DNA of 64,000 nucleotides from Escherichia coli. Its GTDB lineage: Bacteria > Pseudomonadota > Gammaproteobacteria > Enterobacterales > Enterobacteriaceae. The DNA lies in the NCBI RefSeq assembly GCF_013315695.1, contig NZ_CP054353.1. The stretch is one strand, 5' to 3'. Below, one piece after another: positions 54,788 to 57,700 of this stretch. Within the stretch, counting starts at the first letter, position 1. Each line of letters begins with the position of its first letter. Made by a program: the position numbers.

Positions 54788-57700
54788 TTAAACAAAAAAA
54801 CGAAGCAAGCATACGCCTGATGGCGGTCCAAAAAAAAGAGTCATCTTGCCTAAGAGTATTGGCAGGATGGTGAGATTGAGCGACAATCGAGTTACACCGT
54901 CGCTTAAAGTGACGGCATAATAATAAAAATATGAAATTCCTCTTTGACGGGCCAATAGCGATATTGGCCATTTTTTTAGCGCAACATCTGCGGCAAATTC
55001 CCTTCTCCATACAGGTGTAGTGCACCGACCGCGACCACATATCGCCCCGGCGGCATGGCGCGTAATTTATCCCGCCAGGCGAGATTTCGCTGATGCATCA
55101 GCACATCGTACAGCGACTGACTGAACGTATTGGGCAGCGTTATATCATTATTTTGCGGCGGTGCATTCAGCCACCAGCTCATCATTTGTTGCAGCAACCG
55201 TGCATTGGTGTGCCAGTGGGTCAGCGTATCGTCCAGCAGTGCCAGTCCGTTGTCAGGGAGCTGGAGCAACATGGCAATCTGGTTTTCTGCCCCTTCCAGT
55301 TCAATCACGGGTTTATGTTGTTGCTTCGCCGCCTGCAATAGCTGGTAATCGATACCGTATTCTGCCCGCAGCCCCAGTTTTTGTGCCTGCCTCGCCTGAA
55401 GAACCATCGCGATTTGCCACAGCGGTTGGGTAGAAAAGAGTGAGGTAGAAATGCCCATCTCCTGGCTAATGTGCTGCAGGTTTTGGAGTTGCTCCTCGCT
55501 AATGCGCTCTTCCAGTGCCTCGCAGGCAGGCAAATTGGCAAAAGGCGTATCGCTGGTGGAAACATCCGCCTCGACGATCAGCGCATCGGCGTTTTTGAGC
55601 TTTTTGAGCAAACGGGTGGGCAGGGGAGCCATATCGTGGCTACCCATATGAATACTGCCGAGCAGATGAAAATGGCGATTGCCGGGAAGAGAGATATCGA
55701 TAGCAGGCCAGGTGTAATGATTACCGCGCAGCGCGGCCCAAAGCGTTTTTACCCGGTACAACAGATCCATACGACCTCCCTTTGTGAAATATCATGCTAG
55801 CGCGCGGGGAGGGATGGCGCAAATGGAGTTATGAGGCTTGTTCAGTGGTAGCTTAAATATGATCGAAAAATTGTTTTTGCTTTGAAACGAAAGACTGCAC
55901 GGGTGTTGGTGGCGTCAAAATCGCCGAGGCGTTCCCTGAAGGCCGGGGCAGCCCACATGGATGTGGGCTGAGGGCGCGTTTTACAGGGATAATGAGATGG
56001 ACGCTCCAGATTTTACGGTATCAAAGTACCAGACTGGATCGTTGCAATACGTCCTGAAAAATTAGGAGCGTCCACATGAAAGTATCAACTCTTGGTATCG
56101 ACCTGGCAAAGAACGTTTTTCAGCTTCATGGTGTCGATCATGAAGGCCATACTATTTTGCGTAAAAAGCTCACCCGGGCTAAGTTTGTTCAGTTTGTGAT
56201 TCAACTGGAACCTTGTCTGATTGGCATGGAAGCCTGCTCATCCAGTCATTATTTTGCGCGATTATTCACCCGCTATGGTCATGAGGTAAAACTCATACCT
56301 CCGCAGTATGTGAAGCCTTATGTGAAAACGAACAAGACGGATGCAGCAGATGCTGAAGCAATCTGCGAAGCGGTAACCCGTCCGAATATGCGTTTTGTTC
56401 AGATAAAAACCGAAGAGCAGCAGGCCGTTTTAGCGTTACACACTGAACGGGGAATACTTATCCGTGAGCGGATTGCCTGTGCCAATAGTTTAAGAGCCAC
56501 ACTTGCTGAGTTTGGTATTACGATTGCGGCCGGACAAAGCCATTTAACACGTGAGCTGCCAGCCATTCTGGAGGATGGCGAAAATGGTTTATCTCCCTTT
56601 GTCAGAACCAGCATCTACAGACAGTCTAAACATATCCGGGAACTTGAAGAACAAGTTAAACAGGTAGAAGAAGCTCTGGCCTCCTGGTATAGAACGCAGG
56701 AAGCCTGCCAGAGAATGGCCAAGATCCCGGGGGTTGGCATGCTAACGGCCACTTATGTGGTAGCAGCAGTGGGTAATGCCCGACAATTCAGTACCGCAAA
56801 GCAGTTCGCTTCATGGCTGGGGCTGACACCAAAGGAACATTCCAGCGGCGGGAAACAGCAACTGGGAGGGATCAGCAAACGTGGAGATGGATATTTCCGA
56901 TACCTGCTGGTTCACGGCGCACGCGCACTTACCGCCTGGGTCAACCGAAACGGCGCGGTTGAGGAGAATTCCTGGCTTCAGGGACTCCTTGAGCGGAAGC
57001 ACTACAATGTAGCTGTTGTCGCCATGGCGGCAAAAACAGCGAGGATCATGTGGTCAATGTTGTCACACAATACTGAATATCAACCTCGGCAGCTCGCCTG
57101 ACACAAGGTCAGTCAATCTGACGAGGTGCTGAAAAAAAGTTAACGTCCTGGTAGGTGCAGGTGACTTCAGAAGATGGCAAAACAGGTAAGACCGCAGGCA
57201 GGATACACCGAGAGGTAACAAGGGCAAGTTAGCCCGTAGAGGATGATTGGTACCTGCCTGGCGGATTTCATCATGGTTCGGGATAAAAATCCCATCAGAA
57301 ACCGGATATATGGCTGCACCTACCCGTTTTATTACATAACTGAAGAAAGCATTGCATTCCGGGAGCGTCCATATATGTTACCTCGCGCCCGACCCGGTAG
57401 CCGCAAGGGATAAGCCGAGGGTACCGCGCAGCGGCGATTTTGTTCGCCAGAGCCCGGGGGTGCAGGGGGCGGCGGCGATTGGCCGCCCCCTGCGCGCTCC
57501 TTGCGCCAGTCACTTTATATGGCATGACTCATAAAAGGAGCGCAACAAGAACTGGATCTCACAAACGCATTAAGTAAATACCAATCACTCTTTCGGTTTA
57601 AACCTCAGCAACCGGTTGGCGTTACTCACTACGGTAATCGACGAGAGCGCCATTGCCGCTCCGGCAACCACCGGGTTAAGCAGCGTACCGGTGAACGGCC

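What the first reader, a model, noticed from the sequence alone, without database searches (positions are those of the whole stretch)
55997..56078. Three copies of an 11-nt motif: an inverted pair able to sequester the transposase ribosome-binding site, and a third copy near the right end
atggacgctcc (55997..56007) is the reverse complement of ggagcgtcca(c) at 56065..56075, which overlaps the Shine-Dalgarno sequence directly before the ATG at 56076, so a roughly 80-nt hairpin could occlude translation initiation on read-through transcripts. The same motif recurs as ggagcgtccat at 57362..57372, giving an inverted pair bracketing the element, which fits the subterminal inverted repeats described for IS1111-type elements.
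Basis: seen in the sequence. Interest (0 to 1): 0.5.

Follow-up and report, generated by a model that had tools for sequence, protein, structure and literature searches.

The report
IS-end hairpin hides transposase start site
Two of the three repeats are the known subterminal inverted repeats of an IS1111-type insertion sequence (ISEc81), and the third lets the left repeat fold back onto the transposase ribosome-binding site, a hairpin conserved across this family of RNA-guided transposases that probably keeps transposase translation low.

Summary

The element is ISEc81 or a very close variant: IS110 family, IS1111 group, with an RNA-guided DEDD transposase. The outer pair are its subterminal inverted repeats, with the family's asymmetric terminal extensions. 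Empty sites and four independent insertion sites confirm the ends.

The third copy overlaps the Shine-Dalgarno sequence. With the left repeat it closes a 77-nt hairpin (-30 kcal/mol, z = -4.2).

This is not peculiar to one element. In 55-61 IS1111-group elements (40-100% transposase identity) the left repeat and the RBS-proximal segment co-vary. Eight of 12 pairs show double changes, and no shuffle or permutation matched the native pairing. ISEc11 keeps the same hairpin even though its 5' arm is no longer the functional repeat, which argues for an RNA-level role.

One caveat: folding predicts the RBS stays closed in transcripts from the circle-junction promoter too, so the block is probably constitutive rather than specific to read-through.

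The element and repeats are already known. The conserved hairpin is a new example of a known control, unreported in the literature I could search.

The parts
55991..57376 (+). Whole insertion sequence (ISEc81 or a near-identical variant), 1,386 bp. The boundaries carry a 2-bp ambiguity because 'AT' occurs at both junctions (the presumed core dinucleotide).
   Evidence: Empty-site alignment gives ACAGGGAT|GTTACCTCG. Identical ends occur at other chromosomal sites. The element is in 175-179 of 5,426 E. coli genomes.
55991..55996 (+). Left terminal extension AATGAG (TAATGAG if counted from 55990), outside the left repeat. Its first bases supply the 3' half of the -10 hexamer when the ends are joined.
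55997..56007 (+). Copy A: the left subterminal inverted repeat (IRL), ATGGACGCTCC. It is also the 5' arm of the leader hairpin.
55998..56074 (+). Leader RNA hairpin. Outer helix 55998-56007 with 56065-56074 (10 bp). Second helix 56009-56014 with 56058-56063. Apical hairpin 56017-56021 with 56026-56030.
   Evidence: MFE equals centroid, z = -4.2. Pair list. Covariation of the outer helix and apical hairpin.
56065..56075 (+). Copy B: GGAGCGTCCAC, the 3' arm of the hairpin. It contains the Shine-Dalgarno sequence (AGGAG, 56064-56068) and ends one base before the start codon.
   Evidence: A natural variant 56067 A>G turns the A-U pair into G-U.
56076..57101 (+). tnp, a 341-aa DEDD (RuvC-like) IS110-family RNA-guided transposase.
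   Evidence: ORF. PF01548 + PF02371. RefSeq WP_000868863.1 'IS110 family RNA-guided transposase'.
57102..57361 (+). Long 3' non-coding region expected to encode the seekRNA/bridge RNA. The conserved scaffold is about 57173-57320. The variable loop 57212-57220 (GAGGTAACA) is complementary to the right half of the target, TGTTACCTC. 57306-57313 (ATATATGG) is complementary to the right IS end, CCATATAT.
   Evidence: Matches. Scaffold conservation among relatives with other flanks. The role is inferred from PMC11187229 and PMC11208160. There is no Rfam family match.
57352..57357 (+). TTGCAT, the -35 hexamer of the promoter that would form on the circular intermediate (Pjunc). It is followed by a 16-nt spacer that contains copy C. 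The -10 TATAAT is made from 57374-57376 plus 55991-55993.
   Evidence: Sequence. The same layout (TTGGCA/TTGCAA, 3-4 nt, IRR, 1 nt, TA|TAAT) is seen in relatives. Pjunc has been shown experimentally for ISEc11 (PMC11187229). No + strand promoter is found in the linear element.
57362..57372 (+). Copy C: the right subterminal inverted repeat (IRR), GGAGCGTCCAT.
57373..57376 (+). Right terminal extension ATAT (ATA if the left end is counted from 55990).
55894..55990 (+). Left half of the target: a repeated intergenic element resembling TwoAYGGAY RNA, split by the IS.
57377..57550 (+). Right half of the same target repeat.

Best explanation
The region is an intact IS1111-group insertion sequence (ISEc81). 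It sits site-specifically in the loop of a repeated intergenic hairpin element between ybaP and copA.

Copies A and C are its subterminal inverted repeats, the DNA end-marks of the element. When the ends are joined in the circular intermediate, C lies in the spacer of the junction promoter and A lies at about +1.

Copy B is not a transposition end. It is the 3' arm of a conserved leader hairpin in the tnp mRNA. The RNA copy of the left repeat (AUGGACGCUCC, which carries an anti-SD-like CUCC) pairs with GGAGCGUCCA, burying the Shine-Dalgarno sequence next to the AUG. Ribosomes would rarely initiate, which keeps transposase synthesis low.

Shown here: the anatomy, the IS ends, target specificity, predicted stability, and family-wide covariation of the two arms.

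Inferred: that the structure forms in vivo and lowers translation, and that it acts on essentially all tnp transcripts, both read-through and junction-promoter transcripts, not only on read-through.
For: Element identity and ends:
- The IS ends and the absence of a target duplication come from the empty site.
- The same site and orientation are used in at least 4 chromosomal copies of the target repeat.
- The ISEc81/IS1111 listing is.

Hairpin in the window element:
- Stability is -30.2 kcal/mol, z = -4.2.
- P(unpaired) for the SD is 0.00 in read-through RNA and 0.00-0.03 in RNAs starting at 55999-56002.

Family-wide coupling of the two arms:
- In 55 distinct elements, the duplex energy of the left-repeat arm with its own RBS window averages -16.4 kcal/mol, against -12.4 for arms swapped between elements. 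None of 10,000 permutations was as good.
- On a sequence-only MAFFT alignment of 61 leaders, the helix is 76.8% paired. For the whole tested structure (this helix plus the apical hairpin), pairing is 80% against 35-45% when the 3' partner columns are slid.
- Eight of 12 pairs of the helix have changes on both sides. For the whole structure, the covariation score is 0.247 against 0.127 +/- 0.008 in shuffles (0 of 500 as high).
- Repeat types GACGC/GCGUC, GUCGC/GCGAC, GACGGC/GCCGUC and GACUCC/GGAGUC each carry the matching B copy.

Evidence that the pairing is at the RNA level:
- The helix continues beyond the repeat with CG/AU/UA swaps that the right-repeat flank does not share. The inner-flank duplex is -1.67 native against -1.14 swapped, with 76 of 10,000 permutations as good.
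- ISEc81 copies in other E. coli genomes carry A>G at 56067, which turns an A-U pair into G-U.
- ISEc11 keeps the same hairpin over its SD although its 5' arm is an internal sequence 60 nt inside the current left repeat.
- Removing the 5' arm doubles the predicted SD accessibility across 47 elements, from 0.25 to 0.50.

Precedent:
- An RBS-occluding 5'-UTR structure was shown by mutation in the IS110-family element ISPpu9 (PMC8450116).
Against: - There are no expression data for this or any IS1111 leader.
- The hairpin is absent or weak in about a fifth of the elements examined (IS4321/IS5075, L029, L043, L057, L066), so it is not obligatory.
- Many family members have A.C mismatches where the SD (GGAG) faces a CCCC run in the repeat. 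The G:U versus A:C strand-asymmetry test was not significant outside the SD columns (29 vs 18, p = 0.14).
- The sequences are phylogenetically related, so the shuffle and permutation counts overstate independence.
- The covariation would also arise if all three copies were binding sites for one protein.
Confidence: 0.72

Rival explanations
1. Three-copy switch. The left-repeat RNA can pair either with B, which closes the RBS, or with the right-repeat RNA, which is an 11-bp perfect match only 10 nt away across the circle junction. Transcripts that cross the joined ends, or an RNA derived from the right end acting in trans, would then free the RBS. Translation would be coupled to the circular state or to production of the guide RNA.
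For: - In the window element, a junction-crossing RNA folds with IRR:IRL paired, and SD accessibility rises from 0.00 to 0.17.
- Across 47 elements the predicted SD accessibility is 0.25 (read-through), 0.29 (junction-promoter start) and 0.43 (junction-crossing); the paired Wilcoxon p-value for read-through versus junction-crossing is 2e-8.
- ISPpu9 uses an RNA (Asr9) to open its inhibitory leader (PMC8450116).
Against: - IRL/IRR complementarity is already required at the DNA level, so it provides no independent evidence for RNA pairing.
- The junction promoter itself starts inside the left repeat, downstream of the right repeat, so first-round transcripts lack the competitor.
- In the window element, B then pairs with a nearby ACGUCCU (56049-56055), so the opening is only partial.
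- In ISEc11 the hairpin arm is not the repeat, so the right repeat could not compete.
Confidence: 0.13
2. B is a third DNA binding site for the transposase, either an accessory end site or an autorepression operator over the gene start. The covariation would then reflect one protein recognising three sites, not an RNA structure.
For: - All three copies co-vary.
- The way IS1111 ends are recognised is unknown (PMC11187229 discussion).
- The G:U asymmetry test was inconclusive.
Against: - B is inverted relative to the left repeat it would assist.
- B often loses the most conserved outer bases of the repeat. CCAT becomes CCG in 16 elements, which is still a U-G pair.
- Complementarity extends past the repeat only for A:B.
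- B always sits 0-6 nt from the start codon and includes the SD.
- ISEc11 keeps the A':B pairing with an arm that is not its repeat.
- ISEc11 still moves with 745 bp inserted after bp 50, and as a mini-IS with the transposase supplied in trans (PMC11187229).
Confidence: 0.08
3. The hairpin's main role is mRNA stability rather than translational repression. A stem-loop at the very 5' end of the junction-promoter transcript would protect it from 5'-end-dependent decay. Overlap with the SD would be secondary.
For: The predicted Pjunc start (55999-56001) puts the 5' arm at the extreme 5' end with no single-stranded tail.
Against: - The 3' arm is always the SD region rather than any other downstream segment. 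Control windows pair far less well: -8.8 and -5.7 against -16.4 kcal/mol.
- In ISEc11 the hairpin is about 60 nt from the transcript's 5' end.
Confidence: 0.05
4. There is no function. B resembles the repeat only because the repeat happens to contain an SD-like GGAG, and the rest is inherited similarity.
For: Part of the match (GGAG/CUCC) is indeed explained by the SD requirement. Some members lack B.
Against: - Compensatory double changes occur at positions outside the SD, in columns 12-15 with 114-117.
- Native partners beat swapped partners in every one of 10,000 permutations.
- Slid controls drop to 35-45% paired.
Confidence: 0.02

Closest known systems
IS1111-group subterminal inverted repeats (IS4321/IS5075, ISEc11, ISKpn4, ISPa11; Partridge & Hall 2003; Siddiquee et al. 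2024, PMC11187229)
   Same: - An 11-bp perfect repeat pair set back 6-7 nt from the left end and 3-4 nt from the right end. The left extension (T)AATGAG is the same as in IS4321/IS5075.
- A DEDD transposase and a long 3' non-coding region.
- Site- and orientation-specific insertion without duplication.
- A -35/-10 pair that is completed only when the ends are joined.
   Different: For the repeats themselves there is nothing different: this is the catalogued ISEc81. The literature I could read gives no role for a third copy. It also leaves the function of the repeats open.
Fold-back inhibition of IS10 and IS50 transposase translation (from my own knowledge: Davis, Simons & Kleckner 1985; Krebs & Reznikoff 1986; reviewed by Mahillon & Chandler 1998)
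   Same: A sequence in or next to the terminal inverted repeat pairs with the transposase RBS in the mRNA and blocks initiation.
   Different: In IS10 and IS50 the native promoter starts downstream of the 5' arm, so only outside transcripts are blocked. Here the native (junction) promoter is predicted to start inside the arm and keep most of it, and in ISEc11 the whole hairpin is inside the native transcript. The block therefore looks constitutive.
ISPpu9 (IS110 family) tnp 5'-UTR structure with Asr9/Ssr9 small RNAs (PMC8450116)
   Same: The superfamily is the same. An inhibitory leader structure includes the RBS, and mutations that weaken it raise translation. The downstream guide-RNA gene is involved in control.
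   Different: - ISPpu9 has a long UTR, its own promoter and an antisense RNA activator, and it lacks subterminal repeats.
- Here the 5' arm is the end repeat itself.
- No antisense RNA is evident here, only a chance-level promoter-like match on the minus strand.
IS200 tnpA 5'-UTR stem-loop (PMC4513863)
   Same: A cis-acting mRNA secondary structure sequesters the SD and suppresses transposase translation.
   Different: The transposase family is unrelated (HUH), and the stem there is not formed by an end repeat.

Membership tests
IS110 family, IS1111 group | DEDD/RuvC-like N-terminal domain plus a Transposase_20 C-terminal domain; length 330-350 aa | tested here: met
   PF01548 (E 3e-15) and PF02371 (E 1e-24), 341 aa. 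RefSeq name 'IS110 family RNA-guided transposase'.
IS110 family, IS1111 group | Subterminal inverted repeats of about 11-13 bp, perfect or nearly so | tested here: met
   ATGGACGCTCC at 55997-56007 and GGAGCGTCCAT at 57362-57372; 11 of 11 match.
IS110 family, IS1111 group | Asymmetric terminal extensions beyond the repeats (7 or 6 bp left, 3 bp right) | tested here: met
   Empty-site comparison gives 6-7 nt ((T)AATGAG) on the left and 3-4 nt (ATA(T)) on the right, with a 2-bp ambiguity.
IS110 family, IS1111 group | The longer non-coding region lies downstream of tnp and encodes the seekRNA/bridge RNA | tested here: met
   275 nt lie downstream against 85 nt upstream. The scaffold is conserved in relatives. 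Durrant et al. list the ISEc81 bridge RNA in the RE. The RNA itself has not been observed.
IS110 family, IS1111 group | Site- and orientation-specific insertion without target duplication | tested here: met
   The same junctions ...TTTTACAGGGAT|IS|GTTACCTCGCGCCC occur at the ybaP-copA, lysO-yohP, yegH-side and dusC-side loci. Only the 2-bp 'AT' is shared.
IS110 family, IS1111 group | Guide RNA segments complementary to the target and to the IS ends | tested here: inconclusive
   A 9-nt loop segment, 57212-57220, is complementary to the right half of the target. An 8-nt segment, 57306-57313, is complementary to the right end. A guide for the left half of the target is not clear.
IS110 family, IS1111 group | Circular intermediate whose junction creates a promoter (Pjunc) | not testable with these tools
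   In silico, joining the ends gives TTGCAT, 16 nt, TATAAT, a layout conserved in relatives. Neither circle formation nor transcription can be observed here.
IS10/IS50-type fold-back inhibition (protection from outside transcription) | The 3' arm covers the SD or start codon of the transposase | tested here: met
   B (56065-56074) contains GGAG and ends 1 nt before the AUG. P(unpaired) for the SD is 0.00.
IS10/IS50-type fold-back inhibition (protection from outside transcription) | The 5' arm lies upstream of the element's own transcription start, so that only impinging transcripts fold back | tested here: not met
   - The predicted Pjunc start at 55999-56002 keeps 6-9 of the 10 pairs plus the second helix, and the SD stays closed.
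- The family mean accessibility is 0.29, against 0.25 for read-through.
- In ISEc11 the hairpin is fully internal to the native transcript.
- The start site is predicted, not mapped.
IS10/IS50-type fold-back inhibition (protection from outside transcription) | Disrupting the pairing raises translation and restoring it represses again | not testable with these tools
   This needs reporter fusions.
Conserved cis-regulatory RNA structure | Base pairs maintained by compensatory substitutions across homologues | tested here: met
   - Eight of 12 outer-helix pairs and 3 of 4 apical pairs have double changes.
- None of 500 shuffles reaches the observed covariation, and slid controls are 35-45% paired.
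- RNAalifold recovers the helix.
- No phylogeny-aware test was run.

The most novel reading that the evidence does not exclude
The three copies form a mutually exclusive RNA switch. The left-repeat RNA pairs either with the RBS copy (translation off) or with the right-repeat RNA (translation on). The right-repeat RNA is adjacent only on RNA that crosses the joined ends of the excised circle, or it could be supplied in trans from the guide-RNA precursor. Transposase synthesis would then be licensed by the circular intermediate or by guide-RNA production. This would give the enigmatic subterminal repeats of IS1111 elements an RNA-level function in addition to their DNA role.
Probability: 0.13. 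Interest if true: 0.65.

Novelty: new member of a known kind. Interest (0 to 1): 0.4.

Why it matters
IS110/IS1111 elements are the source of bridge-RNA/seekRNA recombinases now being developed for programmable genome rearrangement. The function of the long subterminal repeats that define the IS1111 group is still open.

This analysis shows that the left repeat doubles as one arm of a conserved RBS-occluding leader hairpin. That explains a constraint on the repeat sequence: its inner end must stay anti-SD-like. It predicts that native IS1111 transposases are translated poorly from their own leaders, which matters for anyone expressing them. It also gives a simple, testable handle on how these elements keep transposase levels low.

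For the genome itself the finding is ordinary: a known IS in its usual target.

Tried and rejected
- Rfam search of the element and flanks: no family matched the leader or the 3' non-coding region. The only hit was a chance-level miRNA match.
- Promoter scan: no + strand promoter in the linear element. One minus-strand match (56109 to 56081) is at chance level, and its -35 lies in the conserved D-L-A-K codons, so I did not pursue an antisense-RNA model.
- G:U versus A:C strand-asymmetry test to separate RNA from DNA constraints: inconclusive. It is dominated by A.C mismatches forced by the SD.
Closer relatives had to be fetched one at a time or from plasmids.
- Papers that might already describe the third copy or map the Pjunc start site are not held: Partridge & Hall 2003 and Prosseda et al. 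2006.
- The ISEc11 reference accession used by Siddiquee et al. is not in the collection. I used a Shigella plasmid copy instead.
- Supplement searches for the motif itself found nothing.
- I considered B as an alternative right end that would make an 80-bp mini-element with the left repeat. I rejected this because B lacks the ATAT extension that the putative donor guide matches.
- I considered the junction hairpin plus AGAUUUU as a terminator. The U-tract is present only in the enterobacterial clade, and I did not follow it up.
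Full report
**Observation.** Reading 55700-57700 confirms the three motif copies at the stated coordinates. A is atggacgctcc at 55997-56007. B is ggagcgtccac at 56065-56075, immediately before ATG 56076. C is ggagcgtccat at 57362-57372. A pattern search finds exactly three perfect copies of GGAGCGTCCA in the 64-kb window, all at these positions, and only two more with one mismatch (5 against 3.8 expected). The motif is therefore not enriched in general. What is non-random is three exact copies inside 1.4 kb.

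**What the element is.**
- The ORF 56076-57101 has the two Pfam domains of IS110-family DEDD transposases. RefSeq annotates it as an 'IS110 family RNA-guided transposase', WP_000868863.1.
- E. coli genomes that have the same ybaP-copA locus without the insert give the empty site ACAGGGAT|GTTACCTCG. The inserted DNA is therefore 55991-57376, 1,386 bp. A 2-bp 'AT' is shared by both junctions, as expected for the core dinucleotide of this family.
- This leaves 6-7 nt, (T)AATGAG, outside A and 3-4 nt, ATA(T), outside C. That is the asymmetric layout that defines IS1111-group subterminal inverted repeats (PMC11187229; PMC11208160).
- The non-coding region is short upstream (85 nt) and long downstream (275 nt), which is also the IS1111 arrangement.
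- The transposase is nearly identical to the entry 'ISEc81, RE, IS1111' in Durrant et al. supplementary file 8. In the searchable literature ISEc81 appears only in lists of mobile elements.
- The element occurs in 175-179 of 5,426 complete E. coli genomes, at 1-4 copies. In five further copies at three other chromosomal loci it sits at the same position and in the same orientation.

**Junction promoter.** The linear element has no + strand promoter-like site. Joining the ends gives TTGCAT (57352-57357), a 16-nt spacer, and TATAAT (57374-57376 plus 55991-55993). Reconstructed junctions of 47 relatives show the same plan: TTGGCA or TTGCAA, 3-4 nt, the right repeat, 1 nt, then xTA|TAAT or close variants of it. 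So the right repeat occupies the promoter spacer and the left repeat begins 3 nt after the -10 hexamer. This puts the predicted start at about positions 3-5 of the left repeat. A junction promoter has been shown experimentally for ISEc11 (PMC11187229). The start site here is my inference.

**The hairpin in this element.**
- RNA 55991-56090 folds, as both MFE and centroid, into a hairpin. A pairs with B (55998-56007 with 56065-56074). A second 6-bp helix forms (56009-56014 with 56058-56063), and there is a small apical hairpin.
- The energy is -30.2 kcal/mol against -17.8 +/- 2.95 for shuffles, z = -4.2.
- The probability that GGAGCG is unpaired is 0.00 in a read-through RNA. It is 0.00-0.03 for RNAs starting at 55999-56002, the predicted junction-promoter starts.
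- It rises only to 0.17 in an RNA that crosses the joined ends. There the right repeat pairs with the left repeat, and B falls back on a weak local partner, ACGUCCU at 56049-56055.

**Is the hairpin conserved?** I collected IS1111-group loci from a species-level genome collection, from contigs encoding closer homologues and from plasmids, including IS4321, IS5075, IS5708, IS1618 and ISRsp4.
- In most of them the left repeat lies 78-87 nt before the start codon. A segment ending 0-6 nt before the start codon matches the element's own repeat type: GCGTCC, GCGACC, GCCGTCC, GGAGTCC or GCCACC.
- For 55 distinct elements, the left-repeat arm pairs with its own RBS window at -16.4 kcal/mol on average, against -12.4 for arms swapped between elements. 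None of 10,000 permutations was as good. Control windows in the same leader or in the coding region give -8.8 and -5.7.
- A MAFFT alignment of 61 leaders, made on sequence alone, was scored for the proposed pairs. The outer helix is 76.8% paired and 8 of its 12 pairs have changes on both sides.
- For the whole tested structure (outer helix plus apical hairpin), pairing is 80% against 35-45% for slid partners, and the covariation score is 0.247 against 0.127 +/- 0.008 (0 of 500 shuffles). Three of the 4 apical pairs also co-vary.
- RNAalifold on the 11 closest relatives recovers the helix plus a 3-bp extension with CG/AU/UA swaps.
- Not all members have the hairpin. IS4321/IS5075 and a few others show no good B copy.

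**RNA structure or three protein sites?** The right repeat is by definition the complement of the left, so covariation of B with both could also mean three binding sites for one protein. Several points favour RNA.
- B always includes the SD and abuts the start codon.
- A:B complementarity runs past the inner edge of the repeat, which the right-repeat flank does not share. The inner-flank duplex is -1.67 native against -1.14 swapped, with 76 of 10,000 permutations as good.
- B often loses the most conserved outer bases of the repeat in a way that keeps a U-G pair (column 9/120: UA 31, UG 16, other 5).
- ISEc81 copies in other E. coli genomes carry A>G at 56067, an A-U to G-U change.
- ISEc11 has its functional left repeat (ATGAACGCATCCC) 143 nt before the ATG. 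It still keeps the family hairpin about 80 nt before the ATG, using an internal arm (GUGUGGAGCCUC) against GGAGACUCCACA over its SD. Here the hairpin has survived uncoupled from the repeat.
- ISEc11 also still transposes with 745 bp inserted after bp 50, and as a mini-IS with the transposase supplied in trans (PMC11187229). B is therefore not a spacing-critical DNA site.
- A global G:U versus A:C asymmetry test was inconclusive.

**How it most likely works.** The left end repeat, transcribed as the first bases of the tnp leader, folds back on the SD and limits ribosome loading. Removing the 5' arm in silico doubles SD accessibility across 47 elements, from 0.25 to 0.50.

It would. But the predicted junction-promoter transcripts keep most of the arm and stay almost as closed (0.29), and in ISEc11 the hairpin is entirely internal to the native transcript. 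So I read it as a constitutive attenuator, not an IS10/IS50-style filter against outside transcription.

A related precedent exists in the same superfamily. The ISPpu9 leader structure includes the RBS, and weakening it raises translation (PMC8450116).

**Most novel reading not excluded.** RNAs that cross the joined ends are predicted to be more open (0.43 against 0.25; paired p = 2e-8, though the sequences are not independent). The reason is that the right-repeat RNA captures the left-repeat RNA. This would make the three copies a switch tied to the circular state or to right-end RNA. I give it low probability, for two reasons. First-round junction transcripts lack the competitor, and ISEc11 could not use it.

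**Novelty and verdict.** The IS, its repeats and its family are already known. RBS occlusion by an end-proximal sequence is a classic IS control. None of the papers I could search or read describes the third copy or this hairpin for IS1111 elements. The two older papers most likely to mention it could not be read. I therefore file the hairpin as a new member of a known kind of control. It is of moderate interest because it touches the unexplained subterminal repeats of a family now used for genome engineering.

Noticed in passing
window 55894-55990 and 57377-57550; intact copies L002 1335-1605 and L003 about 1501-1770: The IS target is a repeat of about 270 bp found 3-7 times in essentially every E. 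coli genome. Intact copies give a full-length but sub-threshold Rfam match to TwoAYGGAY RNA (RF01731; 31.5 bits against a gathering score of 43). The IS sits right after AGGGAU, in the loop of the second of the two hairpins. No paper links TwoAYGGAY RNAs with IS insertion.
   Followed up: partly
window 54894-54977 (+): The sroB (ChiX) small RNA gene lies between ybaK and ybaP. The Rfam match is 81 bits, above the gathering score.
   Followed up: yes
L107 1338-1425 (ISEc11 left end, Shigella dysenteriae plasmid): Inside the ISEc11 left end there is a copy of the left half of its own target (GGTGAAA). It is followed by 7 nt and a repeat-like GTGTGGAGCCTC, about 60 nt inside the current left repeat. 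It looks like the relic of an older left junction, as if ISEc11 had acquired a new outer end.
   Followed up: partly
window 56109-56081 (minus strand): A promoter-like site (TTGCCA, 17 nt, GATACT) would drive an antisense RNA across the RBS, the leader and the left repeat. It is a chance-level match, and its -35 sits in the conserved D-L-A-K codons. It recalls the Asr9 antisense RNA of ISPpu9.
   Followed up: no
window 56049-56056 and 57143-57150: ACGTCCTG occurs twice in the IS: just upstream of copy B, and near the start of the 3' non-coding region. In folds it is the fallback partner of B (leader) or of the right repeat (3' region). The leader copy is shared with the closest relatives (L089, L098).
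   Followed up: partly
L102 and L106 (position equivalent to window 56067); L104 (equivalent to 57366): Natural ISEc81 variants. 56067 A>G in copy B changes GGAG to GGGG, giving a G-U pair and a weaker SD. 57366 C>T in the right repeat breaks the perfect repeat.
   Followed up: partly
window 57173-57320: The conserved 3' non-coding scaffold (GATGGCAAAACAGGTAAGACCGCAGG ... CCTGGCGGATTTCATCATGGTTCGGG ... AAACCGGATATATGGCTGCA) is shared with relatives that have different flanks. The internal loop around 57203-57252 varies and carries the 9-nt match to the target. Rfam 15 has no family that matches it.
   Followed up: partly
window 55771-57584: From memory, E. coli K-12 has ybaQ between ybaP and copA. 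This window and the matching empty-site genomes have only the repeat element there, so the lineage differs from K-12 at this locus.
   Followed up: no
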